Sequence record: PQ310662.1
Strand: one strand, 5' to 3'
Source: Escherichia phage Mimir124
DNA: 64,000 nt
This document shows, in pieces, positions 32,454-46,600 of the stretch. The notes beneath the pieces were generated by a model, which saw only the letters and a list, made by a program, of their open reading frames with translations, was not told the DNA's origin and searched no databases. Each line of letters begins with the position of its first letter. The first letter of the stretch is position 1. The position numbers and the translations under genes are program-made.

Positions 32454-33257
32454 ATGTCACTGTTCGGTAACTTGAAAGAAAAGACCAAAAACGTTGAAGC
32501 TGCAAAAGACACTCTTGGTGGTGGTGGCTTCGGTGCAAAAGAATCTGATATCTACACCGGTACTGTAAAAGTAGCTTACGTAGGTAAAGCTGATTCTGGT
32601 GCAGACTGGATGCAGTTAATCATTGAAAACCTGAAAGGTTCTGATGGCAATGATGCTGGTGAGTTCCGTGCCCAGGTATACTTCACTTCCGGTAATGCTA
32701 AAGGCAATAAGCCGACTTACGAGAAGAATGGTAAAGAGTACTTCCTGCCTGGTTACACTGTCATTAATGACATGATGCTGATGGCTACTGGTTGTGAACT
32801 GCCAGATGCAGACTTCGAAGAGAAGATTGTTAAAGTCTATGACTTCGACCTGAAAGCAGAAACCAATAAGTCTGTCATGGTTCCAGTTGATCTGGTGGGC
32901 CAGACTGTTACCTTCGCTCTGGAAAAGGTTCTGGAAGCTAAGCAGGTTAAGGGTGATAACGGTTACGTTGACTCCGGAGAAACTCGCGAAGTAAACGAGA
33001 TTCAGAAAGTGTTTCACCCGGAACTGCTGGTTACAGTCGTCGAGGCTCAGGAAGCAGAGAAGGCTGAGAAAGAACTGACCCCAGAACTGGCTGTATTCTA
33101 TACAGCATGGTTGGAAAAGAACAAAGGTAAAACCCGTGATAAGACCAAGGGTTCTGCTGGTGGTAATGGTAAAGGTGGCTTACCTCCTAAACCAGGTGCA
33201 GGTGCTGGCACAGGTACTACTCCTGCTGGGGGTAAATCTCTGTTCGGTAAGCGTTAA
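32454..33257 (+). CDS. single-stranded DNA-binding protein (N4 SSB-like by size/position)
   Basis: 267 aa with Gly-rich C-terminal tail (GSAGGNGKGGLPPKPGAGAGTG); position between ATPase and resolvase. Confidence 0.5.
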   Translation: MSLFGNLKEKTKNVEAAKDTLGGGGFGAKESDIYTGTVKVAYVGKADSGADWMQLIIENLKGSDGNDAGEFRAQVYFTSGNAKGNKPTYEKNGKEYFLPGYTVINDMMLMATGCELPDADFEEKIVKVYDFDLKAETNKSVMVPVDLVGQTVTFALEKVLEAKQVKGDNGYVDSGETREVNEIQKVFHPELLVTVVEAQEAEKAEKELTPELAVFYTAWLEKNKGKTRDKTKGSAGGNGKGGLPPKPGAGAGTGTTPAGGKSLFGKR

Positions 33258-33811
33258 TGAAAATCCCAATTGTCGGTGCAGATATTAGTCTCCGCAATTG
33301 GGGATTAGCTCGTGGGATGCTGGACATTGAGTCCGGTGTCTTCGAGCAGGTCGAACTTAAACTGGTTCAAACTGAAGTTGACCACAACAAACAAGTTCGA
33401 ACCAACTCCAAAGATATACAAGCTGCCCATGATTTGTTTCTTGGTTGCAAAGAATGGTTACGGTCTGCTAAAGCAGTGTTTGTAGAAGTACCAGTAGGCT
33501 CTCAGTCTGCTAACGGTATGAAGTCCTATGGTGTATGCGTAGGATTAATCGGTGCATTCCGTGCATTGGGTTGCCCAATCTTTGAAGTATCCCCAATTGA
33601 AAACAAACTTGCACTGGTCGGTGATAAAACTGCATCCAAAGACACGATGATTCGTGCTGCTCATGCCATCTATCCCGAAGCCAACTGGCTCACGGATAAG
33701 AAAGGTAAACTCCTGAATAAGAATGAGCACTTAGCTGATGCAATCGGTGCAATCCACGCTGGGGTAAATCTACCAGCTTTCCAGAATCTCATTAAATTAA
33801 TAAAGGCATAA
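33257..33811 (+). CDS. RuvC-like Holliday junction resolvase
   Basis: VGADISLRNWGLA (G.D.S.r..G.A) and C-terminal HLADAIGAIHAG resemble RuvC motifs. Confidence 0.55.
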   Translation: MKIPIVGADISLRNWGLARGMLDIESGVFEQVELKLVQTEVDHNKQVRTNSKDIQAAHDLFLGCKEWLRSAKAVFVEVPVGSQSANGMKSYGVCVGLIGAFRALGCPIFEVSPIENKLALVGDKTASKDTMIRAAHAIYPEANWLTDKKGKLLNKNEHLADAIGAIHAGVNLPAFQNLIKLIKA

Positions 33812-33812
33812 T

Positions 33813-34262
33813 ATGCAAATCGTTCTGAACCAGTCTGAAGTAGAAGCTGCTATTGAAGCTTATGTAAATGAACAAGTTAATCTTGCCGGGGACATTAATA
33901 TCCTGGTGAATGCAGATGGTACTGCCACTATTGGTATCAATGAAGAGGTCGGTCATAGTGATGACACTCCCCCCGTGGTAGAGAAGAAGACTCGCCGTCC
34001 TCGTAAGAACCCACAAGAAGCCAAACACCGTCCGGTAGAACCGGAACCGGTTGTTGAGGATGAAGCTGAAGAAGAGGTAAAGGAAGAAGAAACCCAGACC
34101 TCTACTGGTGGACCGAACGGGAGTTCTACGCCGGAACCTGAAGAAGCAGTAGCTGAACCAGAAGCACAAGAAGAAGTTGTGCAGGAGGAAGTTAAGGCAG
34201 AAGAACCAGCAGAGAAACCTGCTGCGAAGCCTTCACTGTTCGCTGGCCTAAAACGTAGTTAA
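33813..34262 (+). CDS. acidic low-complexity protein (149 aa)
   Basis: E/P-rich C-terminal half (EPEPVVEDEAEEEVKEEE...). Confidence 0.45.
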   Translation: MQIVLNQSEVEAAIEAYVNEQVNLAGDINILVNADGTATIGINEEVGHSDDTPPVVEKKTRRPRKNPQEAKHRPVEPEPVVEDEAEEEVKEEETQTSTGGPNGSSTPEPEEAVAEPEAQEEVVQEEVKAEEPAEKPAAKPSLFAGLKRS

Positions 34263-34664: not shown

Positions 34665-35441
34665 TATCGTGAAGGGTTCTGTCAGAATCCTTTGAGATAG
34701 GAACTCCTATCATAACCTTTCTTAACTTAATCTTTGCCGTATGGCACTGACGCTAGGGGTGGCCCCCCATCCGTCAGACAGACTATTTTAAGAATGGGTT
34801 ATCTCAGAAAATGTAAAGCAACATTCGGGTTAATCAATGGCCTCTCCTATAGGGGCCATTTCTGAGTCTTAGGCTATATCCCAAAGGTTAGTATCTTTGG
34901 GATAAGGCTTCAGATCCCTTATCAAACTAGCTGCTCAATGTTGAGCATATTAATCAACCAAGCCCAATAAGGGGGCGGGAGTTTAATGCCGGTAAGCATA
35001 AGCCTATCCGTCTACAACATCGAACTGTTAGATCTTACATGCAATATAGGGTATAAAGGGAGGACTCGTCCCCTCCCTCCTATTATGAACTATCGGAGAG
35101 TGCATTAGTTGATTAGCTGTGGAAGGTAGGCCGATGTCCACGAGCATGGCCCAGAGCTAGTGTACTCCCCGATAGTTTTCGTAGCGATTATGCGGTTTTT
35201 TAGAAACGAACCAATAACATAAATGCAAACGAAGAAGCGTATCTGATGGTCGCCTAACAGCGTAACCTCAGTCAGGAGTGAGTCGTCCTGATTATCAAAC
35301 GACCGTGGAGTTCTCCCGTCCATGTATTAGAAACGGGGGACCAATTACCAGTTGCACGAGATGGCTTGACATGTTCAAGTTTGGACTAAGTGTGACACCG
35401 CTAGATTGGAGGGCTGCTGCGGTAAGCTATAGACTCCAACC

Positions 35442-35469
35442 GGAGGTTCGAATCCTTCACTGGTAACCA
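35442..35469 (+). ncRNA. tRNA 3' module (canonical T-arm GGAGG-TTCGAAT-CCTTC, acceptor 3' strand, discriminator A, encoded CCA); 5' half not resolved
   Basis: Exact GGTTCGAATCC T-loop motif; the only complementary 5' acceptor strand (taccagt) lies 121 nt upstream at 35346. Confidence 0.4.
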
Positions 35470-35545
35470 ATTCAAAGTAGCACTGTATCTTTAAATGTTT
35501 CCCGGCATTCAAAGAACCCACCGTGACAGTGCTACTCTGAATTGG
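35467..35545. repeat. 20-bp inverted repeat (19/20) flanking a 39-nt spacer
   Basis: ccaattcaaagtagcactgt (35467-35486) versus acagtgctactctgaattgg (35526-35545). Confidence 0.7.
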
Positions 35546-35642
35546 AAGAATTAAGACGGGTCTGGTTGAAGTAGATGGGGTTCGATTACCTCCGGTGGAG
35601 TAATCCACTAGCGTGCTTGGTGCACGAATAAGACTTAGTACT

Positions 35643-35667
35643 GGTGGTTCGATTCCATCCCCCGTTA
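35643..35667 (+). ncRNA. tRNA 3' module (T-arm GGTGG-TTCGATT-CCATC + acceptor 3' strand ccccgtt); candidate 5' strand gatgggg at 35574 (94-nt span)
   Basis: Canonical T-arm geometry; no standard D/anticodon arms found by hand in the intervening sequence. Confidence 0.35.
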
Positions 35668-35861
35668 CCTGAAGTCGCCAGGTACTTATGGCAAACGGGT
35701 AGTAACGAACTAGTCATTCGTCAAACGCCCACCCAATTATGAGTCAGCAAGAACGCCTTCACTTAAACTTAAACAAAAAAGCTTAACGCAATAATTATGT
35801 AGGGGTATGTAAGGATTGCGAAGAAGGAGCCAGTTAGAGCCTGGCATGACTCACCTATTAT

Positions 35862-35935
35862 GTCCACTTAGCTTAGACTGGGAAAGCAACCGACTAATAA
35901 TCGGAAGGTCACTGGTTCAAATCCAGTAGTGGATA
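35862..35935 (+). tRNA. tRNA (74 nt, canonical cloverleaf; anticodon loop CTAATAA, anticodon reads AAT in standard register)
   Basis: Acceptor gtccact/agtggat (7 bp), U8, D-stem gctt/aagc with GG in D-loop, anticodon stem ccga/tcgg, 5-nt variable loop, T-arm actgg-ttcaaat-ccagt, discriminator A. Confidence 0.6.
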
Positions 35936-36166
35936 CTTATTCAGCAGTAACATAGTCCTGATTGCATAGCACTCTAAAGACAACACTGGTAAGACAGTCC
36001 AGTGGCTGCTAATGTATTGTTATTCCCCTCGACGGGAATTTCGCTAGTGAAGGTAACACTTAAAAATCCAAACCTACGTCTTACTACTATCGGGCTATCA
36101 ACCCACGGTCGCTTAACCCTGTAGTGATAGTAGTTTGACGGCCTGCCTCGTTGACTGCGTTAAAGT

Positions 36167-36207
36167 CACTAAGTCCCTCGGAGCCGTCACTCTGGGGGAC
36201 TTTTTTA
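36167..36207 (+). terminator. rho-independent terminator closing the non-coding island
   Basis: aagtccc...gggggactt hairpin followed by tttttattt. Confidence 0.5.
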
Positions 36208-36208
36208 T

Positions 36209-36394
36209 TTGAGAACTGTTTATTGGACGATTCATATGATTGACCTAATCTTAACCCCGTATGCCTATGAGGTAACGGATAACCGAGGACGTAAGTCTTT
36301 GGTGTTTGCAGGTAGCGTAGCCTATAACAACGCAGTCATGTTTAAATACAAACTTAAACCACTTTATGAGGCTAATAATGGCAACAGTAAGTAA
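36209..36394 (+). CDS. hypothetical small protein (61 aa)
   Basis: ORF starting right after the terminator. Confidence 0.35.
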   Translation: MRTVYWTIHMIDLILTPYAYEVTDNRGRKSLVFAGSVAYNNAVMFKYKLKPLYEANNGNSK

Positions 36395-36758
36395 AGAATC
36401 AATCGAAGCTAAGATTAAGAGCGTTTACTATTTCAATGGTGCTGATGCAGTAAAGACTGCATTCGTTAACCCTTCTGCACTTCCGGCAGACGATTTGGCT
36501 AACCTGAGCCTGGTAACCTACTGTATTATCATCCTGGAAAACGGATTCAAAGTTGAAGGTGTATCTGCCTGTATTGACCCAACCATCTATGATGAACAAA
36601 AAGGCCGTCAGTATGCATATGAAAATGCATTCAATAAGATTTGGGAAATAGAGGGTTACCTGCTACGTCAGGCATTGCATGAGAAAGAGGAGACTACTAA
36701 GGCTCTGGCTTCCTTTGCAGAAAACAACACCTGTGATGGTGGTGGTTGCACCATTTAA
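36378..36758 (+). CDS. N4 gp49/Sf6 gene 66-like family protein
   Basis: LSLVTYCIIILENGFKVEGVSACIDPTIYDEQKGRQYAYENAFNKIWEIEGYLLRQ resembles the gp49-like family signature as I recall it; start set to ATG 36378. Confidence 0.45.
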   Translation: MATVSKESIEAKIKSVYYFNGADAVKTAFVNPSALPADDLANLSLVTYCIIILENGFKVEGVSACIDPTIYDEQKGRQYAYENAFNKIWEIEGYLLRQALHEKEETTKALASFAENNTCDGGGCTI

Positions 36759-36849
36759 CAAACAGGTGTAAGGTAGTTTTTACCGAAAGGTACTGAACTA
36801 CCCAACATGTGGTAAGGCTCTAGAAGCCAAAACAAAACAAGCCCTCCTA

Positions 36850-37365
36850 GTGAGGGCTTTATCATTTGAGGTAGTTATGTCCGAAGAAATTAAAATTCAC
36901 TTCACCAACTACATTGGAACCAAGTGTGTAAATGGTTTCAAGATGAACAAGGAAACATATTGCAAACTTCGTGGCTGGGATGTGCCTGCTAATGAAGACC
37001 CATTAGAAGAAGGTTACTTAGTAGAGTACCCAGACTCTAAACCTAACCATGAGCAATTCCGTGGTTATATTAGCTGGTCACCAAAAGCTGCATTTGAGGC
37101 TGCATATTGTGACGTAACTAAGGGTTGTACTTTTGGTCACGCAGTAGAACTTTTGAAGTCTGGTTTTAGACTGTCCCGTAAAGGCTGGAATGGAAAAGGA
37201 ATGTATATCACCTTGGTACCGGGTAAATATTGGTCCATGGCTAAACATGAGAACTCCATTTGTGAGAAACGGGATTGGTTGGGCATCAAAACTGTTGATG
37301 ACCAGTTTATGCCTTGGGTTCCATCCCAATCGGATGTATTAGCTGAAGACTGGGTAATTCTGTAG
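36850..37365 (+). CDS. DUF2829-domain protein (Tad2-like C-terminal domain fused to an N-terminal domain)
   Basis: C-terminal FGHAVELLKSGFRLSRKGWNGKGMYITLVP...WVPSQSDVLAEDWVIL matches the DUF2829 signature (GWNGKxM...SQ.D.LAEDW). Confidence 0.5.
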   Translation: MRALSFEVVMSEEIKIHFTNYIGTKCVNGFKMNKETYCKLRGWDVPANEDPLEEGYLVEYPDSKPNHEQFRGYISWSPKAAFEAAYCDVTKGCTFGHAVELLKSGFRLSRKGWNGKGMYITLVPGKYWSMAKHENSICEKRDWLGIKTVDDQFMPWVPSQSDVLAEDWVIL

Positions 37366-37374
37366 GAAACTATT

Positions 37375-37605
37375 ATGACACAAGTATCTATTACCTCTGT
37401 TGTTCGTGAATCCATTCTCAACAATACTGTCCGTACATATTCATTCGATGAAATCGCAGAGAAGCTGGGAGTAACTCGTTACGTAGCTAAAAAACTCTAC
37501 TTCACATTCCTGTGGTTCCCTACGGAGGAAACATTACGGAAGATTAAAGAGACTGGTAAATTTCCAAGTGAAGGACGTAAGCCTAAAATGTGGAAAACAC
37601 CCTGA
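37375..37605 (+). CDS. hypothetical protein (76 aa)
   Basis: Last plus-strand ORF before the convergent terminator. Confidence 0.4.
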   Translation: MTQVSITSVVRESILNNTVRTYSFDEIAEKLGVTRYVAKKLYFTFLWFPTEETLRKIKETGKFPSEGRKPKMWKTP

Positions 37606-37617
37606 CTTCTAAAAGCA

Positions 37618-37646
37618 AAGCCCCTCTAATGAGGGGCTTTTTTATT
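37618..37646. terminator. bidirectional terminator between convergent plus-strand genes and the minus-strand vRNAP gene
   Basis: aaagcccctc-taat-gaggggcttt flanked by an A-run upstream and ttttttatttt downstream. Confidence 0.7.
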
Positions 37647-40600
37647 TTAATTTACCAGGTTCATCCAAGGGTTAAGGTTGTGAGCACGAAGCCCCTGACC
37701 AAAGCCCCATGAGTAATCCAGACTACCCTTAGCAGCAATGCTAAAGATGTTGTCCTGAATAGGTAAGCCAACGTTACCAAACATGGTAGGAGTTGGAGCC
37801 AACATAGCCATAGCAGCATGCACTGGGTTATTACGAATCATGGACACTGCAACTTTTGCAGAACGAATCTTAAAGTTGTAGAACCACATTAAACCAACAC
37901 TTTCCATATACCCACGGAAGCGACCAGGTAAACGATCATAGTTAATGAACTCTTCCGTTACACGTCCTAGTGCTTCTTCACGAGTCTTACCTTTACGCTG
38001 GGTCAATTCATCATAGATGATTGCTTTAGCGATAAAGTCAGAGTACTCAACGGTCTTCTGGATACCCTGGAATAAAGCAGTATCCTTAGTGATAAGTGCA
38101 TAACGTCCGGCAGTACGTACTGACTTAGGTAGCTTATCTGCCAATTTACTCATGTACTCTTGAAGTTTACCTTCGGTAATAAGGATGTCATCACGACCGA
38201 TACCAGCGTCTGCAATTGAAGAGAACTCACCAGCTTCTAACAGAGGCCAGATACTCATACGCTTATGGCTATCAGTAATGGACTGAATCTCAGCCTTAAG
38301 TTTACGAATCTGGTTCGGGTTAGTAGCTGCACGTAATTCTGCTTCTGCATCTACCTGACGCAGACGAGACTTCAGGTACTGGTTAATCTCAGCAGTTTTC
38401 TGTGGAATGCTCTTAGCAATGTTCTTAACCGGTACGCCACGGGCAACCATCTGGTAAAGGTTAGCCAAGAAGTTAACAGCAGGTACGACTACTGACTTAA
38501 CTACAATCAGAGTCTTGGCTTCTTTAACTAAGTTCTGAACCAGGTTCTCACCACCCATAGTGTACTTATAAGCACGGTTGCCAAATACACCCAGCATAGC
38601 TTTCTTGAAGGTATCCAGGGTTTCCGGGGACCAACGAGAATTACCAGACCAGGCATCACCAACAGAAGCTGCACGATAACCAAGTGCATCATTCAGCATG
38701 TCACGACGCACCCACAGTTCGCCATCACCAAACAGGCTTTCTGCTTTCCGTCGAGTTTCACTGTTCATCAGCTTAAGTGCATCAGCAGTTACTGGGTCCA
38801 GTTTAGAACCAAGAAGGTTCACATACTGGGACTTGTTAGAGGCAGACATCTTTATGTCGTTCTCATACATACTATGCAGGTTCTCAATCAGCATATCGTT
38901 GAAACGCTGTGCCTTAGCCTCTTCCACCTGACGCCCACGCCATACACCAATTGCACGTGCAAGATGGTTCTCACCTTCAATATGCTTCAGCATGTTAGGG
39001 TCAATGGATTGCTCATAAGCAACTACATTACCTTTATCATCATATACAGGCAGGAGTGGTTCATTACCACGTTCACCACGAGCCAGTGCTTTAGTGATAC
39101 GGTCTACGGAAGGCTTGTCAGTGATACGACCTGCTACCATGGAACCCATCGTAAAGCCTGTACCCAGGTCTACACCACCAGCAGTATTACGAACGTTCTG
39201 TAGGATACCCTGTGAGAATGGAGCCTGTGCCTGTACTGGTGCAAAGTAATAACTACGTGCCGGACCACGGTTAGCAGAACTACCTTGATAAGTACCCAGA
39301 CGTACATAGGACTTCTCAATCAAATCAGCAAACTGACTATCTTCAGCAACAATCAGATTAACGCCCTGTTTAGTCTCACTAGGGATATGCCCTTTGTACT
39401 GGTTCAGGGTTGCACGCATATCAGATTTGGCTTTAGCCATTTCATCTTTACGCTGACCAACCAGATAAGAAGTAGCAAAGTCCATTCCCTCAACTTCTGA
39501 TTGAGCCAGTGAAGATAACATCTCACGGTCGGACTTATTCATTGCTTCCAGTGCATACAGGGTAATCAGTTTATCCAGTTGAGCTACATCTACAGTAGAA
39601 CGAGCAGCCTGACGTTCACCCAGCATACGAGAGATTGCAGTAGCATTACGCAGCAGGTTATTACCGACTGTACCATTAATCATGTACTGAGCCAGTTGCT
39701 TAGATTTACGACTAATAAGAGGCCAGTTACGACCAGCTTGTTTTTGCAAATCTGCTTCCAGCTTATTCACTTCACGGTCAACAATCTTCTGGTCAGTCAG
39801 CAGGTCACGGATTTCAGCCAGAGACATAGTGTCACGCAGAACAGCTAAGTCAGTTTTACCCATACCAGTGTGCATTGCTTTCCACTCATCTTTAGTCAGC
39901 TTACGGCTGAACTTAGATGCGATAGTGGTGGGCAGGTGTTCACGAAATTGTTGACGGTCTGCTTGTACCTGTGCACGAACTGCTTTAATTAAATCATATA
40001 CAGAAGCATTACTCTTAGTACGACCAGTTAGGTCATTAACTAAGTCATGGAAAGGTTGCCATACCTTGCCTTGGTTCATTGCAGCCATAACACCTTCAGC
40101 TACGATTACACCATTCTTCTCTGTAGCAATGGCAGCTACCAGTTGTGCAGCATGAGCAGCACCTTTAACCAACGGGTTCTTGGTATTAGCTGCAACTTCA
40201 CGAGCACTTTCTAAAGCACGGGTGGACAGTGCATCAATAGAATCCACCAGATACTGGTTAGCACGGTCGATAGCATTACCACTAGGTATAGCAACGGAAT
40301 CATAAAATGACTGTGCATTGAGGCTGGTCTGCATGATTGTCTGAGCCAGTGCATCCGTCCCTTCCTGCACATTGGTGGCTTTGGTATCACCTGTTACACG
40401 AGCATTCAGGCTAGACATTGCAGCAGTACCGATGTTAGTCAGCATTGCATCAATGGTATTACCAGATTTCTTATCTGCTTTCATAACAGGAATGTTAGCC
40501 AGTACATTACGTACTTCTTCACTAACCATTGCCAGACCAACAAAGGTAGGCAATAAGGAAGAACGACCCTGTGCATCAAACTCAATGTTGTTAGCACCCA

Positions 40601-43600
40601 TGATGGTATCAAACTTCTGTTGAGCATAGTAACGGTCAGCAGGGTTAGTGCTATCAGGGTCAGCCATGAATGCTTCAACGGTCAGGTTCTTAGTGACGTG
40701 TGCGTAGTATTCCTGTGCACGAGAAAGAGCAGCCGGACTAATAGCAGCTTCAGTAGCCAAAGCAGCAACAATGTTAGTGAACAGTCGCTGTTCCTGCATA
40801 TTCATAGTGAAGCCATGAGCCTGAACATCACGAGTTACTTTAGTTGCATTCACTACTGCATCAGAGAACTTACCCTTACGAATTACTTGCTGTACCGGTT
40901 CTGAACCAATGTAGTTAGTAATCAGCTTATCAAAGGTCTGCCCCAACTCTTCCAGACGGGTATTGTCACCGTATGCTTTGTTATGGAACAGAGTAGTGTC
41001 TTTGGCTACAGCAGCAGTAGGAGCCTGCCCACGCATAACTACAGAAGAGTTAAACAGTAAGCCAGAGAACATATCATCTGCGTTAGCAGGGGCTTTCTTA
41101 CGACCAAATACCAGACGTTTGATTGCTTCATATACAGCCTGAACCATGGCCTTAAGTGCAGTGGTTTTCTTCTGCTTACCAATCAATTCACGGTTGGTTA
41201 AACCCCATGCCATGTACTCATTCAGTGCAGCAGCTTTAGCCATTGCTGGTTCAATAAAGCCATTAGACAAGTGACCATTAATGGTATTGAGTGCATCAGC
41301 ATATGCTTCACGTACTGCCGGGGATTCATCCTTAACATCCAGAGTACGGAACTGGTTCATCAGGTCTTCAATATTCTGGACTGCTTCATTAGAAGTACCT
41401 TCATAGTGAGCCAGTACAGATTCAAAAGTAGAAGCATGTACCAATTCATGAACCAGAGTCTCTAAGGAAGGAGTAACTAAGTAGATGGTCTTATCTTCAA
41501 AGTTAGTCCAGCCATATGCATTACCAGCTTCAGCAGCTTCAATATCTTCCGGTGCTGGGCGAGTAATGTTCTTCTCAATAGCATAAGCATCCAGTTGAGC
41601 AGGAGTACCATAAACAACCTTGTAGTCTTTAGCAGCAAGGGATTTCTGTACTTCTTTCAATACTGCTTGCTGTTCTGGGGACATCTCTTTAGCCAGCTTA
41701 GTGATAGCAGTATTGGACAGCAGACGTACACCGGACTTCAGTACACGACCTACCTTCTCCATTGCTGGTACTTCTTTCACTGGTTCTGCTTTAGCAGCAC
41801 GTACTGCATCACGACGCTTATTTAATTCAGCATCAAACAGCTCGTTCAGCTTAGCTACTTGTTGGTCTACAGTCAGACCTTCCAGAGAAATTTTACCGTT
41901 GTTCACATAAGGAGCACCTACAGCAGCCATCTGGTCAACAGTAGTCTGTACCTGGTTCATTACTTTGTGGCGAATATCTACACCCAGAGCAATGTTACGC
42001 AGATTACGTTCAATCTGTTCAGCACCAATACGTAACAGGTCATCAGTAGCACCTTCACGTTGGTCATATTCCAGAGCAGATTTAGCGATAGCCTGTTTGG
42101 TTTCATCAGACAGTTTGCTGAAGTCTACGTTCTTCATGAACTTAGCGAAGGAGTCATAAACATTCTTGATAGGGTTTCCTTGCCAAGAAGTATATACAGC
42201 CTCGTTAGCTTTACGACTTGCATCAGTAATGTCATTAATACCAATGTTCATACCATCAAAGATTTTCAGGGTATTCTTCGGAGCACCCTTCATAGTAGAA
42301 AGAGTCTGCATCATCATGCCATCACCAGTACCGATGGTCATAAATGGAATACCTGCAACACCTGCCTGTGAAGGAGCATAGATGCTCATTGGCACACGCA
42401 TACGGTCATCTAAGTTGGTAGCCAGTACTTGGTTAGCAACATCAGTGTTCTCACTACCAGCAATGTAGAAAGTCTGTGAGCCAGTCTCAATCATTGGAGC
42501 CAGCGGAGATAAGCTATTCTGAATTTCATTCAGTTCTTTCTGCGTTAAGAAATCACCTTTCTTCCATGTTGAGTCTTTTTCTTTTTCTGCAAGTTTAGCC
42601 TGTACTGCCTGTTGGAACATATCCTGCAATACCAGAGACTGAATCTGGGTAGCCTTCTGTAAGTTCTCAGTAGAATGCATCAGACCTTCACCAACAGTAT
42701 TTCGAATACCAGTACGCATTGGTTCAACGAACAGGTGAAGCATGTTCTCTTGTAAGTTCTTCAGGGCATTACCAGATACAGTAAACTTCTGTGGGTCTAA
42801 CTTACCAGTCAGAGCACCTTCTACCTGCTGAATAGATAACTCACCCTTACGCATAACTGGAACATTGCCAGTCAGTGCTTCCATAGAAGTAAGGAAAGTA
42901 TCCAGCATAGCCTGAGCATCAGCCTCAGATGCAGCCTCCTTACCAAACATTGCCATAGCCGGGGAAATACTAGGGTCAGCAGCACGAGCTTGCAGAACGT
43001 CGCTGAAGCGTTCGTAGATGGTATCAGTAATTGCACTAACCATCTTGCCAGCAATACCACGAGCACCAGAACCATAGATGGTAATGGTTAGTGGGTTTTT
43101 AGCGATACCACGTTTCAGGTCCAGTGTACCGTCTTCATTCAGGTTAAAGTCTTTGATGAACAGGTCCATTAACTTCTGGAGATGATTCATCTGGCTCATA
43201 ACAGGAACGTTGTTACGGTAAGTACTACGTAATTCACCAAGTGCTTGTTGCAGACCATTAGTAGATGCTTCATACAGGTCAACACTGTCATCCTGTGAGC
43301 GATGCTCGTTCATAGTCTTACCAGCTTTACCGAAGAACAAACCACCCTTAGCAGTATTCTTAATCCAGTCTGGAGTGAACTTACCACCGGTCATTAATAC
43401 CATTGCGTTGATTGGGCCATTGGTTACACCATCAGCTTCAACGTACAGTGGGGTATTAAAATTGGCACGGTCATCGCTATTCAGGTAACGGGCATATTCC
43501 ATCAGAGCCATGAGAGCTACGAATGATTTATCACCACCCAAAGAGGTCTTAAGAATATCCACTGCATCAACTGGTAAGTAACCAGACTTATCAAACTCAA

Positions 43601-46600
43601 CCATCATATCAACAGCAGGTTTCAGGTTACCTTCCAGAGCTTTGGTCAGCTTTTCAGACATAGCTTCACGGGACATGTTATGTACCTTGATGCCTAATGC
43701 CTGAGCCAGACCTAACTGAAAGTCAGAGAACGCTTGGCTGTTTTCATTACTCAAGTCAATAGTAGAGAAGGTTGGCAGAATTGCTTCACGAACCAGCTTA
43801 CTGGATTGTGGGTTATTCTTACCAAGCATCTGCATACGACCTACACGGGTCATGTTGTAACCATAGTGAATAGGAGTATCCAGTCCATTCTCCTGTTCCT
43901 GAACCTGATTGATTACCCCAAACAAGGAATCGTATGCCATAGACACGGACAGGTTCTTACATTCCAATGATTTAGCAGTGTTTACGTTCAGTAGTTCAGG
44001 ATTAATCGTACCAGCACCCATCAGTTCCAGAATGTTGTCACGACCCAATGCTTCATAGAAATTAACCATCGGCATGTGTACACGGAACTCAGTAGCCTGT
44101 TCTGCTTTAAGAGCAGCTTTCTGTTCTGGAGTATTCTTGACAGCCGGGTTACGTAACTGAGTTTGAGCCACGGAAGGAATATCATCCCCGAAGTACATTT
44201 TCTCTTCCGGTTCTACGAGGACAGCTTCCTCAATAGCAGTAGGGAAATTGTTAATGGCATCGTTATCATCCAGCTTCTCAATGGTGTACAGACCTACAGT
44301 CTTATTGGAGGCTGGGTCAATTTCAGACACATCCAGCATAGACTCTTTAACTTCACCCATCTCAATAAAGGAAGACAGAATCTCTGTAGCCATTGCCATT
44401 GGGATACCCTTGGTATAACCCAGTGGTGCATTAGGATTACGATTCAAACCCCAATAGGATTCAATCTTTTGAGCCAGTGAGTTAGTAGCTTCAACCAGGG
44501 TCTGAGCATTCTCGAAGTCAGCCAGAATACCTTCAGGTAACAGGGATGCTTCTACACCAGTAATAGCAGCTACATCTTTCATGTCTTTAATGGCAGCATT
44601 CTGTGTAGCAGTCAGTCGCCATTGCAAACCAGCAAGTACAGCAGTCTCTAGCAACTGGTCATTGAACTTAAAGGTGTCACCATCCTTCTCAACGATATTC
44701 AGCAGTTTACCACCCACCCAACGGTTAGCTTCAGTACCTTCTGCAAAACGTTTACCAACATTCTTGTTAGCAAGGAACTTAGCTAGACGGTCAGAAAGAG
44801 TAGTCTTCAGGGTTTCACCAAAATCAAACAAGTCCTGATAACGCTTAATCACATCACTTGTGAGAGCGTTATTTTCTTTTTGAGTAAATGCTTCAAAACG
44901 AGCAACAGAAGACAGTGCTTTCTTAACATCAGTCAAAGGAGACTCAGAACCAATGGTACGAGACTTAGGTTCTTCCGGTAGGGTAAATGCTTTCAGGAAC
45001 TGGTTCGGTGTCTTTTCATTGTTATAGACAGGGAACACTGTTTCCATTTCTGTTTTGGTTTCGACTACTTCCTGGGTAGTATCTACTGTTTCAGACTTAG
45101 TAGTAGAGACTTCTTCTGTTTTTGGGCTAGTCTCCATAGTAGGAGCAGTCTTATTTTCTACCACTGGTTTAGCTTTAGGCTGTACAGTAGTAGTGTCCTC
45201 TTGCACTGGTGCAGGAGTTTCATCAACCTGATTCACTGGTTCATTGGTCTGTTGGGATTGAGCAGCGTCAAGATTGCCCTGACGGAACTCTTTAACTACC
45301 TGGGCAGCAGGCTTGTCCAGACGTGAATCCAATGGGGTAACTTTCACATGAGAAACATTAAGCTCCGGGTAAGCCGTAGCAAGTGCGTTAGCAATATCAG
45401 CTACGGTTTTGGCCTCCAGTCCTACTTGCTGGGCAAACTTAACAGACTTGGTATCGTAAGGATTGACACCGAGTCCAGTACGACTACGTACCCATTCACG
45501 GGAAGGCGAGAGAGCCTGATAATGAACAGACTTATTCTTATCCGCATTCCCAGAAATCAGATGCTCATTCAACGCTCCGACCTTATTCTGCATGTGCTGG
45601 GCGAACTTCATAAAGTCGCTCAGATAAGCGGAGGCCAAATCGAAGTTACCAGAGTTATACGCAGAACGAATGCGTTTCGCATGTTGCAACGCAGAGTACT
45701 GTCCTTCGTTAGAACGAGACTCATCGGTTTTAATTTGTTTACTAACAATGTCTTGAGGACGTAAGCCCAGTTCTTCTGCTTTAGCGTCGAACTCACGTGC
45801 ACCCTGTAACAAGGCAGCAGCAGATTGCAGGGCAGCACGTTGATGATTCCCCAGTGTAATCTTACCTTCACTTGCATGTTTCAGAACCATGTTCACTGAA
45901 TCTGCATCCAGTACTTCTGGGGATACATCAGCAGCCATAGCAATGTTGTTTGCTTGGGCTTGATTAGCTTCTTCAGTAGCTTTCAGCTTACCTGCTTCAG
46001 CCTGTTCCTGAATCATGGAATGGATAGCACGGTATGCACGGAGTACTTTAGGTGTATTCTGTACGTTAGCCATCAGGCCAGAGAACTGGTCTACGATAGT
46101 AGCAGCAGGGGAACCTTGTTCCAGATTAGCCAGAGCACCTGGGTCACGGTTAATGAAGCTATCCATAGACATAATGTTGTCATACATCTGGATTGCAGCT
46201 TCCATTTGAACGTTAGGATCTTCAGCAGTATTAACCAGGTCAGCCATCTTCTGAATAGCTTCTACACGGTTAGTGGAACCAGAAACAGCTTCACGGATTA
46301 CCAGGTTAGCTTGTTCCAACTCTACTGGGTCGAACTTCATTGCCTGAGTTAAGTCAGCAGCATACTGAGTAGCAGCAGCTTTCTCTTCTGGAGTGATATC
46401 CATTGCATCTACTGCTTCCTGTACAGTTGCTTGTGCCTGCTCTGCCTGAGCAGCAGCTTCCTGTGCAGCAGCGTTAACCGTAGCATCAGCTACAGGGGAT
46501 GCTTGTTCATTACGCTTAGCAACTTCTTCCCCACGTTGAACCAGGATGTTAGTAAGAGGAGATGCAGCTTTTGCTAATGTTTTACCAACCAGAGAAGCAC

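What the first reader, a model, noticed from the sequence alone, without database searches (positions are those of the whole stretch)
36209..37605. Candidate anti-defence locus just upstream of the vRNAP gene: gp49-like protein plus a DUF2829 (Tad2-like) fusion protein
ORF 36850..37365 ends in a domain matching the DUF2829 signature (RKGWNGKGMYITLVP...WVPSQSDVLAEDWVIL), the fold reported for Thoeris anti-defence Tad2 proteins that sequester immune signalling nucleotides. Here it is fused to an about 90-aa N-terminal domain with conserved Cys/Trp (CVNGFKMNKETYCKLRGW...GYISWSPKAAFEAAYCDV) that I do not recognise. The neighbouring ORF carries the N4 gp49/Sf6 gene 66-like signature. Both sit in a short plus-strand block between the tRNA island and the convergent late module, a typical accessory position. 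A two-domain DUF2829 protein would be a distinct architecture worth testing for sponge or other anti-defence activity.
Basis: partly seen in the sequence, partly recalled or inferred. Interest (0 to 1): 0.7.

Follow-up and report, generated by a model that had tools for sequence, protein, structure and literature searches.

The report
Two phage immune-signal sponge genes
This stretch of an N4-like E. coli phage carries two known kinds of sponge genes (Acb4 and Tad2) that soak up bacterial alarm molecules, so the locus is ordinary, but the unexplained front half of the Tad2 protein is a widespread module attached to at least five sponge families.

Summary
ORF 36877..37365 (162 aa; the GTG at 36850 is not the start) ends in a Tad2/DUF2829 domain (Pfam E 8e-24; solved Tad2 structures E 1.5e-17; model-to-structure TM up to 0.86). 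Eight of ten gcADPR-contact residues are identical. ORF 36378..36758 hits PF13876, which the literature now equates with the anti-CBASS sponge family Acb4.

The two genes are orthologues of phage N4 gp48 (Acb4, experimentally a cyclic-nucleotide sponge) and gp49 (87% identical). They lie in the anti-signalling hotspot next to the virion RNA polymerase gene, described for N4-like phages in a June 2026 preprint. GenBank relatives are already annotated "Thoeris anti-defense 2-like". So the locus is a new member of a known kind, and the two-domain architecture is common, not distinct.

The open part is the roughly 72-residue N-terminal module. It has no Pfam family and no solved-fold match. A profile search finds 2,970 clusters. 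Among the best 150, it is fused to Tad2 (58), Sequestin (43), Acb4 (9) and the Acb2/Tad1 hairpin (3). It is also the N-terminal domain of RyR Tad, where it forms a swapped dimer and showed no anti-Thoeris I activity alone. Whether it is a further sponge or a scaffold is untested.

The parts
33257..33811 (+). N4 gp46-like, RuvC-like protein (probable Bes1-family gene). It is a conserved landmark of the hotspot, upstream of the finding.
   Evidence: 35% identity, E 2e-28, to Pectobacterium phage CB1 gp74, which is annotated as similar to the N4 gp46-like protein of Ab09. Syntenic genes in relatives are annotated RuvC-like. The preprint names the RuvC-like gene of the hotspot Bes1. No Pfam hit here.
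35862..35936 (+). tRNA-Ile (anticodon AAT), the only tRNA detected in the window.
   Evidence: ARAGORN. Rfam tRNA at 62.6 bits.
36171..36202 (+). Terminator-like hairpin followed by a T run, just upstream of the gene block.
   Evidence: 13-pair stem, 7 GC pairs, followed by TTTTATTT.
36236..36394 (+). ORF-A, a small protein of unknown function. It is 52 aa from ATG 36236; the ORF listing gives TTG 36209 and 61 aa. It overlaps the start of ORF-B by 17 nt.
   Evidence: phrog_34266, E 7.8e-22, matching residues 10-55 of the 61-aa reading. A 159-nt homologue is annotated in phage Moonfish. No Pfam, NCBIfam or PADLOC hit.
36378..36758 (+). ORF-B, an Acb4-family cyclic-dinucleotide sponge (126 aa), orthologue of N4 gp48.
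   Evidence: PF13876 at E 2.9e-25. The family profile hits SPO1 Acb4 structure 9e4w at E 8.6e-5. 46% identity to N4 gp48. PF13876 is the Acb4 family. N4 gp48 is Acb4.
36839..36859 (.). Perfect 8-bp hairpin between ORF-B and ORF-C. It contains the spurious GTG start. Relatives carry inserted DNA at this site.
   Evidence: Found on both strands by the terminator scan. Phage 24-32N has an extra 249-nt gene between the two sponge genes.
36877..37365 (+). ORF-C, a two-domain protein (162 aa), orthologue of N4 gp49.
   Evidence: 87% identity to N4 gp49. phrog_872, E 2.3e-66, full length. AlphaFold model with pLDDT 84.8.
36901..37116 (+). N-terminal module of ORF-C (residues about 9-80; beta-beta-alpha-beta-beta-alpha). 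Function unknown. It is a recurrent fusion partner of sponge domains.
   Evidence: No Pfam hit, no PDB sequence hit and no PDB fold match. The profile finds 2,970 clusters. Partner census. Homologous to the N-terminal domain of RyR Tad, hhalign probability 96.9%.
37129..37359 (+). Tad2 (DUF2829) domain of ORF-C (residues 85-161).
   Evidence: PF11195 at E 6.8e-24. PDB Tad2 chains at E 1.5e-17. Foldseek E 3e-7, TM up to 0.86. Pocket residues conserved.
37375..37605 (+). ORF-D, a 76-aa protein of unknown function with a weak helix-turn-helix resemblance. It is variable cargo.
   Evidence: phrog_9565 at E 2.2e-31. Only sub-threshold HTH/sigma-70 region 4 hits. Absent from N4. In many relatives the similarity stops at the end of ORF-C.
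37617..37640 (.). Strong hairpin terminator between the convergent + block and the vRNAP gene.
   Evidence: 10-pair stem, 6 GC pairs, then a T run.
37647..47996 (-). Virion RNA polymerase gene (3,449 aa), the right boundary of the hotspot.
   Evidence: ORF list. Annotated as vRNAP in relatives.

Best explanation
The block 36236..37605 is the right-hand part of the anti-signalling gene island that N4-like phages carry between their replication genes and the virion RNA polymerase gene. It encodes two sponges that act on different bacterial alarm molecules.

ORF-B is an Acb4-family protein. By analogy with SPO1 Acb4 and N4 gp48, it is expected to form a tetramer that sequesters CBASS-type cyclic dinucleotides (3'3'-cGAMP, and probably 3'3'-c-di-AMP as in other Gram-negative-host members).

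ORF-C is the orthologue of N4 gp49. Its C-terminal Tad2 domain is expected to form a tetramer. The interface pockets (W104, N105, T139, D141, W147, S150, S152, D153) would sequester TIR-made ADP-ribose-derived signals (3'cADPR and/or His-ADPR) and so blunt Thoeris. The short 19-residue insertion makes a second, HgmTad2-type cyclic-dinucleotide pocket unlikely.

The N-terminal module of ORF-C is a separate, very widespread, strongly conserved unit. My preferred reading is that it is another homo-oligomeric binding unit, a further sponge or target binder for something other than 3'cADPR. In that case gp49-type proteins would be two-in-one inhibitors like the known Acb4-Tad2, Tad2-Sequestin and Acb4-Sequestin fusions.

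Shown here: homology, fold, pocket conservation, synteny and fusion statistics. Inferred: oligomeric state, ligands, activity in vivo, and any function of the N-terminal module.
For: Tad2 domain:
- Pfam E 8e-24. PDB sequences ModTad2 at 1.5e-17 and SPO1 Tad2 at 6e-13. Model versus solved Tad2 structures: E 3e-7, TM 0.7-0.86.
- SPO1 Tad2 ligand residues are W25 N26 I63 T65 D67 H71 W73 S76 T78 D79. In the alignment they align to W104 N105 I137 T139 D141 M145 W147 S150 S152 D153.
- W104, N105, T139, W147 and S150 are invariant, and D141 and D153 are at least 90% conserved, in 31 homologues.

Acb4:
- PF13876 at E 2.9e-25. PF13876 is defined as the Acb4 family, and all eight tested members bind 3'3'-cGAMP.
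- The family profile hits 9e4w at E 8.6e-5, with F48, G67 and R68 conserved.
- N4 gp48 is Acb4, and it is necessary and sufficient to trigger Panoptes.

Locus:
- Same order as N4 gp45-gp50.
- The hotspot with Tad2, Acb4, Sequestin and the RuvC-like Bes1 is described.

N-terminal module:
- 2,970 clusters.
- Fused to Tad2 58, Sequestin 43, Acb4 9, Acb2/Tad1 hairpin 3 of the best 150.
- Three-module chains such as Acb4 + module + Sequestin.
- Stand-alone 73-aa proteins exist.
- 26 of about 72 positions are at least 90% conserved across 150 sequences that share 31-54% identity with ORF-C.
- Fusion to sponges is how Sequestin was found.
Against: - No experiment bears on this phage, or on N4 gp49, in the literature I could search.
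- Ligand specificity within the Tad2 family is known to vary (Thoeris I, II and IV, CBASS, Pycsar), so the exact signal cannot be read from sequence.
- In ORF-B several SPO1 Acb4 contact residues differ: E49 to K, Y57 to I, T70 to Y.
- The only tested homologue of the N-terminal module (RyR Tad gp68 residues 1-86) had no anti-Thoeris I activity alone. In the crystal it acts as a domain-swapped dimerisation element.
- The module in ORF-C is net acidic, by my count from the sequence. Only two basic residues (K16, R32) are conserved across the family. This is unlike the positively charged pockets of most sponges.
Confidence: 0.8

Rival explanations
1. The N-terminal module is only a structural accessory. 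It would be a domain-swapped dimerisation or scaffolding unit that stabilises or cross-links sponge oligomers and has no ligand of its own. ORF-C is then a single-specificity Tad2 sponge.
For: - In RyR Tad the homologous domain swaps its beta-1 strand to complete a five-stranded sheet, and both domains contribute to the dimer.
- gp68_N alone was inactive against type I Thoeris, and gp68_C alone was sufficient. Homology to the module is shown.
- The module is N-terminal in 127 of 150 proteins.
- It is net acidic, by my count from the sequence.
Against: - Its partners (Tad2, Acb4, Sequestin) oligomerise and work without it.
- It also exists as a stand-alone 73-aa protein. [quoted passage not shown]
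- It sits between two self-oligomerising sponge modules in three-module chains.
- Its polar and aromatic residues (K16, R32, W34, E40, Y47, E50, Y64, W67) are more conserved than a packing interface needs.
- gp68_N is a divergent member that lacks the YN..RGW motif, and it was tested against one system only.
Confidence: 0.3
2. ORF-C is an anti-CRISPR of the AcrIIA7 type, as some database annotations of relatives suggest.
For: - AcrIIA7 is a DUF2829 protein. PDB chains 8kbi and 9kzr match at E 1e-10.
- Pharokka-style records call the phage Louie homologue 'anti-CRISPR protein'.
Against: - Li et al. could not reproduce any Cas9 inhibition by AcrIIA7/HgmTad2 or other Tad2 homologues. They showed that it is a gcADPR and cyclic-dinucleotide sponge.
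- The AcrIIA7 match covers only residues 84-116.
- To my knowledge E. coli lacks type II CRISPR-Cas.
Confidence: 0.03
3. The two genes are not counter-defence genes. They would serve phage replication or transcription, and their position simply reflects the conserved N4 gene order.
For: - The gp48/gp49 pair is conserved in N4, in gamaleyaviruses and in Klebsiella N4-like phages.
- The preprint cautions that some hotspot genes (Bes1, Bes2) may aid phage development rather than inhibit defence directly.
Against: - Both domains belong to families whose members are biochemically proven sponges.
- The same proteins occur in unrelated phage types: P22/Sf6-like, Vibrio, Clostridium and Rhodoferax phages.
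- Content around them varies between close relatives.
Confidence: 0.05

Closest known systems
Escherichia phage N4 gp49 (YP_950527.1, 'DUF2829 domain-containing protein')
   Same: 87% identical over 158 residues. Same two-domain architecture and same position directly upstream of the convergent vRNAP gene.
   Different: The window has an extra small gene (ORF-D) between it and the vRNAP gene, and a hairpin spacer upstream. In N4, gp48 and gp49 abut. I found no functional study of gp49.
Tad2 sponges with solved structures (SPO1 gp34.65: 8SME/8SMF; ModTad2: 9EIB/8V3E)
   Same: DUF2829 fold, 38-48% identity over about 80 residues, TM up to 0.86. The gcADPR pocket residues are conserved.
   Different: The solved sponges are single-domain proteins of about 89 aa, whereas ORF-C has an extra N-terminal module of about 80 aa. 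H71 is replaced by M, and T78 by S. The insertion after beta-2 is shorter, 19 aa against 24 aa in SPO1. The ligand (3'cADPR or His-ADPR) is undetermined.
HgmTad2/AcrIIA7 and SptTad2 (8KBI, 8WJD), dual gcADPR and cyclic-dinucleotide sponges
   Same: Same family. The N-terminal helix and the GWNG motif match at E 1e-10.
   Different: [quoted passage not shown] ORF-C has about 19 residues there, so this second pocket is unlikely.
Acb4 (SPO1 Acb4, 9E4W; N4 gp48)
   Same: ORF-B is in PF13876. It is 46% identical to N4 gp48, and the family profile reaches 9E4W. The core motif F-x-V-x-G ... (F/Y)(N/D)xExGR is kept.
   Different: Several SPO1 ligand contacts are replaced: E49 to K, Y57 to I, T70 to Y. 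ORF-B also has a C-terminal Cys-rich tail (CDGGGCTI) that is absent from SPO1 Acb4.
RyR Tad (Pectobacterium phage CB1 gp68; bioRxiv 10.64898/2026.06.04.730250)
   Same: Its N-terminal domain is homologous to the N-terminal module of ORF-C (hhalign probability 96.9%, E 1.6e-10). It comes from the same hotspot of an N4-like phage, and it also carries a gcADPR-sponge domain at its C terminus.
   Different: The C-terminal sponge is a RyR-repeat domain (PF02026), not Tad2. The gp68 N-terminal domain is divergent and lacks the YN..RGW..P..E motif.
Sponge-sponge fusion proteins (Acb4-Tad2 of phage Pm86; Tad2-Sequestin; Sequestin-Acb4 of YH6/Ab09 gp59)
   Same: Modular proteins that join small oligomeric sponge domains. 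The N-terminal module appears in the same kind of chains, for example Acb4 + module + Sequestin in phage Philippe.
   Different: In those fusions both halves are proven sponges. The module here has no demonstrated ligand and no Pfam family. It is not Sequestin: PF21825 maps C-terminal to it in fusions. It is unrelated to Tad2 and Acb4.

Membership tests
Tad2 (PF11195 / DUF2829 sponge family) | Significant match to the DUF2829/Tad2-like profile | tested here: met
   E 8e-24, 84.4 bits against a cut-off of 25; model positions 2-72 of 73.
Tad2 (PF11195 / DUF2829 sponge family) | Tad2 fold (N-terminal helix plus antiparallel sheet), superposable on solved Tad2 structures | tested here: met
   AlphaFold model with pLDDT 84.8. 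Foldseek against 9eib, 8smf and 8wje: E 3e-7 to 7e-7, target-normalised TM 0.70-0.86.
Tad2 (PF11195 / DUF2829 sponge family) | Conserved gcADPR-pocket residues (SPO1 W25, N26, I63, T65, D67, H71, W73, S76, T78, D79) | tested here: met
   Eight are identical, T78 is replaced by S, and H71 by M. H71 only coordinates water and is Ala in ModTad2. Based on the alignment, the residue list, and family conservation.
Tad2 (PF11195 / DUF2829 sponge family) | Homotetramer with ligand pockets at protomer interfaces | not testable with these tools
   Only monomer prediction is available.
Tad2 (PF11195 / DUF2829 sponge family) | Binds and sequesters a TIR-derived signal and inhibits Thoeris | not testable with these tools
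   Needs biochemistry and plaque assays.
Acb4 (PF13876 sponge family) | Significant match to PF13876 | tested here: met
   E 2.9e-25, 89 bits against a cut-off of 27. The family is equated with Acb4 in PMC11722364.
Acb4 (PF13876 sponge family) | Sequence relationship to the solved founder (SPO1 Acb4, 9E4W) and to a tested member (N4 gp48) | tested here: met
   The profile of 22 homologues hits 9e4w at E 8.6e-5. 46% identity to N4 gp48. N4 gp48 is Acb4.
Acb4 (PF13876 sponge family) | Conservation of the 3'3'-cGAMP contact residues of SPO1 Acb4 (K36, F48, E49, Y57, F62, N63, T70, K81) | tested here: inconclusive
   In the aligned core, F48 is kept, F62 becomes Y and N63 becomes D. E49 becomes K, Y57 becomes I and T70 becomes Y. 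K36 and K81 lie outside the aligned stretch.
Anti-signalling hotspot of N4-like phages (bioRxiv 10.64898/2026.06.04.730250) | Located between the primase-polymerase and the virion RNA polymerase genes, interspersed with SSB and a RuvC-like (Bes1) gene | tested here: met
   The order is SSB-like 32454..33257, RuvC-like 33257..33811, tRNA, ORF-A to ORF-D, then vRNAP 37647..47996. Definition. The primase gene itself was not examined in the window.
Sequestin (PF21825), considered for the N-terminal module | Match to PF21825; all-helical fold of 60-80 aa | tested here: not met
   No Pfam hit at E <= 10. In module-Sequestin fusions, PF21825 maps to the C-terminal half, outside the module. The model is mainly beta.
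N-terminal domain family of RyR Tad (unnamed; 'fold of unknown function, often a single ORF') | Homology to residues 1-86 of CB1 gp68 | tested here: met
   hhalign probability 96.9%, E 1.6e-10 over 81 columns.
N-terminal domain family of RyR Tad (unnamed; 'fold of unknown function, often a single ORF') | Domain-swapped dimer completing a five-stranded sheet | not testable with these tools
   The monomer model has four strands and two helices. The RyR Tad crystal structure is not in the PDB copy searched.

The most novel reading that the evidence does not exclude
The roughly 72-residue N-terminal module of ORF-C and N4 gp49 would be an unrecognised family of phage immune-signal sponges, or of small target-binding inhibitors. 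Its motif is YIGTK..A.PM....YN..RGW..P..E....GYLVEY......N....GYISWSPK..FE.AY.

It forms its own homo-oligomer and binds a signal other than 3'cADPR. Phages append it to Tad2, Sequestin, Acb4, Acb2/Tad1-hairpin and RyR-Tad domains to widen the range of one small protein.

The same logic (fusion to known sponges) led to Sequestin. That screen queried Pfam families, and this module has none, so it could not have been picked up.
Probability: 0.35. Interest if true: 0.7.

Novelty: new member of a known kind. Interest (0 to 1): 0.4.

Why it matters
As a locus it adds little. It is the Gamaleyavirus copy of N4 gp48/gp49, in a hotspot that has been described, with both sponge families already characterised.

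Its value is as a pointer.
- N4 gp49-type proteins are common: more than 1,900 database hits for the full protein.
- Their Tad2 half has apparently never been assayed.
- Their N-terminal half belongs to a family of about 3,000 clusters that co-occurs with at least five sponge families yet has no name, no Pfam entry and no known ligand.

If that module binds a signal, it would be a new sponge family present in model phage N4. It could reveal which additional host signal N4-like phages must neutralise.

If it is only a dimeriser, it would show that phages use a common clamp to assemble sponge oligomers.

Tried and rejected
- **GTG 36850 as the start of ORF-C.** Rejected in favour of ATG 36877 (Shine-Dalgarno, homologue N-termini, GTG inside a hairpin).
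- **N-terminal module as Sequestin.** Rejected.
- **N-terminal module as a degenerate or duplicated Tad2 or Acb4 domain.** Rejected: hhalign probabilities 0.4-4.4%.
- **Known fold for the module.** Nothing found.
  - No PDB sequence hit.
  - Best Foldseek PDB hit E 0.7.
  - BFVD returns only uncharacterised homologues.
- **Tandem copies of the module** suggested by my local HMM. Rejected: Pfam places Tad2 or Acb4 on the supposed second copy.
- **HgmTad2-type cyclic-dinucleotide pocket.** Judged unlikely because the insertion is about 19 aa against the 35-41 aa required.
- **Anti-CRISPR reading.** Rejected.
- **PADLOC and NCBIfam scans** of all four ORFs gave nothing useful.
- **phmmer of ORF-B against the PDB** missed Acb4. 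Only the family profile found it.
- **Literature searches** for N4 gp49, or for the module as a sponge partner, found only the RyR Tad remark.
- **'PDB 6E3C'**, cited by a sponge survey as a fused domain. I could not identify it. It did not appear among fold matches to the module.
Full report
**What the window is**

The 1.6-kb region is 87-94% identical to G7C-like phages of E. coli, Shigella and Klebsiella (Gamaleyavirus, Schitoviridae). It sits immediately upstream of a convergent 3,449-aa virion RNA polymerase gene.

**Anatomy of the + strand block**

| Feature | Coordinates | Evidence |
|---|---|---|
| Terminator-like hairpin | 36171..36202 | |
| ORF-A, 52 aa from its ATG, phrog_34266 | 36236..36394 | |
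| ORF-B, 126 aa | 36378..36758 | |
| Perfect 8-bp hairpin | 36839..36859 | |
| ORF-C, 162 aa | 36877..37365 | |
| ORF-D, 76 aa, phrog_9565, sub-threshold helix-turn-helix hits only | 37375..37605 | |
| Strong terminator | 37617..37640 | |

ATG 36877 follows a GAGG, and all homologues begin MSEEIK. ORF-B likewise starts at ATG 36378, as in its 126-aa homologues.

**Check of the observation**

- ORF-C hits PF11195 (Tad2-like, formerly DUF2829) at E 8e-24.
- It matches the sequences of solved Tad2 sponges: ModTad2 at 1.5e-17 and SPO1 Tad2 at 6.4e-13.
- An AlphaFold model (pLDDT 84.8) superposes on those structures with Foldseek E about 3e-7 and TM up to 0.86.
- ORF-B hits PF13876 'N4 Gp49/Sf6 gene 66' at E 2.9e-25.
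- The N-terminal 83 residues of ORF-C hit nothing in Pfam at E <= 10.

**The Tad2 domain**

Yirmiya et al. list the SPO1 Tad2 residues that hold 1''-3' gcADPR as W25, N26, I63, T65, D67, H71, W73, S76, T78 and D79.
- In the HMMER alignment these correspond to W104, N105, I137, T139, D141, M145, W147, S150, S152 and D153 of ORF-C.
- Eight are identical. T becomes S. H71 only coordinates water, and it is Ala in the active ModTad2.
- W104, N105, T139, W147 and S150 are invariant across 31 full-length homologues. D141 and D153 are at least 90% conserved.
- Cyclic-dinucleotide binding by HgmTad2 and SptTad2 needs a 35-41-residue insertion. ORF-C has about 19 residues between GMYITLVP and WLGIKT, so that second pocket is unlikely.
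- ORF-C scores higher against ModTad2 (a His-ADPR, type II Thoeris sponge) than against SPO1 Tad2. Tad2 members are known to cover Thoeris I, II and IV, CBASS and Pycsar. The exact ligand therefore cannot be assigned.

**The neighbour is a known sponge**

- Chang et al. define the anti-CBASS sponge family Acb4 as PF13876. They show that eight of eight tested members bind 3'3'-cGAMP, and that those from Gram-negative-host phages also bind 3'3'-c-di-AMP.
- A profile of 22 ORF-B homologues reaches the SPO1 Acb4 structure 9E4W at E 8.6e-5. F48, G67 and R68 are conserved, but E49, Y57 and T70 are replaced.
- In phage N4 the syntenic genes are gp48 (PF13876, E 8.8e-35) and gp49 (same two-domain protein).
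- N4 gp48 is named Acb4. It is necessary and sufficient to trigger the Panoptes decoy system (PMC12657230).
- ORF-B is 46% identical to gp48. ORF-C is 87% identical to gp49.

**The locus is a described hotspot**

A June 2026 preprint (10.64898/2026.06.04.730250) defines an anti-signalling hotspot in N4-like phages between the primase-polymerase and the vRNAP genes.
- It contains Tad2, Tad3, Acb4 and Sequestin, plus a RuvC-like gene (Bes1), interspersed with SSB.
- The window shows the same layout: SSB-like 32454..33257, a RuvC-like gp46 homologue at 33257..33811 (35% identity, E 2e-28 to CB1 gp74), one tRNA, the block, then vRNAP.
- Content varies between close relatives. Many lose similarity right after ORF-C. 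Phage 24-32N has an extra gene at the inter-ORF hairpin. N4 lacks ORF-D.
- GenBank relatives are already labelled 'Thoeris anti-defense 2-like protein' or 'DUF2829 domain-containing protein'.

**The N-terminal module**

This is the only unexplained part.

*Fold and family*
- The model is beta-beta-alpha-beta-beta-alpha, with core pLDDT above 90.
- It has no PDB sequence match and no PDB fold match better than E 0.7. In BFVD it matches only uncharacterised phage proteins.
- It is unrelated to Tad2 or Acb4 by profile-profile comparison.
- It is not Sequestin. In fusions, PF21825 maps downstream of it.

*Distribution*
- A seven-sequence profile finds 2,970 representatives of 50%-identity clusters at E <= 1e-3, and 1,398 at E <= 1e-10.
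- Pfam scanning of the best 150 gives 58 with Tad2, 43 with Sequestin, 9 with Acb4, 3 with the Acb2/Tad1 hairpin, and single cases with WDGH, AP2 and HNH. The rest have no recognised partner.
- It is N-terminal in 127 of the 150.
- Stand-alone 73-aa versions exist.
- Three-module chains exist. Stenotrophomonas phage Philippe gp098 is Acb4 + module + Sequestin. Achromobacter phage Axy13_069 is module + Acb4 + Sequestin. Clostridium phage CP51 gp007 is module + Acb4.

*Conservation*
- Across the 150 sequences, which share 31-54% identity with ORF-C, 26 positions are at least 90% conserved. Most of these are polar or aromatic.
- Against N4 gp49 the module is 92.5% identical, compared with 87% for the whole protein.

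*Link to RyR Tad*
- The N-terminal domain of the newly described gcADPR sponge RyR Tad (Pectobacterium phage CB1 gp68) is homologous to the module (hhalign probability 96.9%).
- It found no anti-Thoeris I activity for residues 1-86 alone. In the crystal it forms a domain-swapped dimer.
- That copy is divergent. It lacks the YN..RGW motif.

**Interpretation**

With about 0.8 confidence the block encodes two sponges.
- ORF-B is an Acb4 that takes out CBASS-type cyclic dinucleotides.
- ORF-C carries a Tad2 domain that takes out TIR-derived ADP-ribose signals.

For the N-terminal module I favour an autonomous binding unit (about 0.35-0.4) over a pure dimerisation scaffold (about 0.3).
- For the binding-unit reading: the partners oligomerise without it, it stands alone in some phages, it occurs between two self-sufficient sponge modules, and its conservation pattern looks like a binding site. 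Fusion to sponges is how Sequestin was found, but that screen used Pfam families, and this module has none.
- Against: the inactive gp68_N, the structural role seen in the crystal, and an acidic net charge.

**Verdict**

- The anti-defence interpretation is right but already known.
- The 'distinct architecture' claim is wrong, because this is N4 gp49.
- The locus is a new member of a known kind.
- The residual interest lies in the unnamed, very widespread sponge-partner module. I found no study of it in the searchable literature beyond one remark.

Noticed in passing
window 36901..37116; also L006:1501-1965, L007:955-1638, L009:1492-2190, L008:1477-1902: The N-terminal module of ORF-C recurs as one unit in multi-sponge chains. 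Examples are module + Acb4, Acb4 + module + Sequestin, and module + Acb4 + Sequestin. In Vibrio phage 1.205.O a module + unknown-domain gene sits next to a Sequestin + Tad2 gene. About 40 of the best 150 family members carry C-terminal regions with no Pfam hit. These regions are heterogeneous. Some look like divergent Tad2, and others might be further unrecognised sponge domains.
   Followed up: partly
window 33257..33811 and 33813..34262: The first is an N4 gp46-like, RuvC-like protein (35% identity, E 2e-28, to CB1 gp74) with no Pfam or PDB sequence hit. It is probably the Bes1 ('broad evasion of signaling 1') family of the 2026 preprint. The acidic 149-aa ORF that follows sits where Bes2 lies in Ab09, but I did not test homology.
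   Followed up: partly
window 34700..35860: This roughly 1.1-kb stretch has no long ORF, yet it is 93-95% conserved among gamaleyaviruses. N4 has four tRNA genes at the syntenic site, whereas this window has only tRNA-Ile at 35862..35936. Some relatives annotate a tRNA-Cys here. Only sub-threshold tmRNA-like Rfam hits were found, at 35156..35304. It may hold decayed tRNAs or an unrecognised RNA.
   Followed up: partly
window 37375..37605 (ORF-D): A 76-aa protein with only sub-threshold helix-turn-helix / sigma-70 region 4 resemblance. It is absent from N4 and from many gamaleyaviruses, whose similarity ends at the stop of ORF-C. It appears to be a variable cargo slot directly next to the vRNAP terminator.
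   Followed up: no
window 36839..36859: A perfect 8-bp GC-rich hairpin lies between the Acb4 and Tad2 genes, where N4 has the two genes abutting. Phages 24-32N and SP5M carry extra DNA in this interval. It could be a transcription signal or a recombination/insertion point.
   Followed up: no
window 36732..36755 (C terminus of ORF-B): ORF-B and its N4-like homologues end in a conserved Cys-rich tail (consensus C-E-x-G-G-C-x-I). SPO1 Acb4 lacks this tail. Chang et al. noted unexplained extensions in some Acb4 homologues.
   Followed up: no
L001:3202-3594 (phage 24-32N Gp52) and L004:1525-1995 (phage Louie CDS0064): Public annotations call the Acb4 homologue and the module-Tad2 protein 'anti-CRISPR protein'. 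This seems to be inherited from AcrIIA7, whose Cas9 inhibition could not be reproduced. The label is likely misleading.
   Followed up: partly
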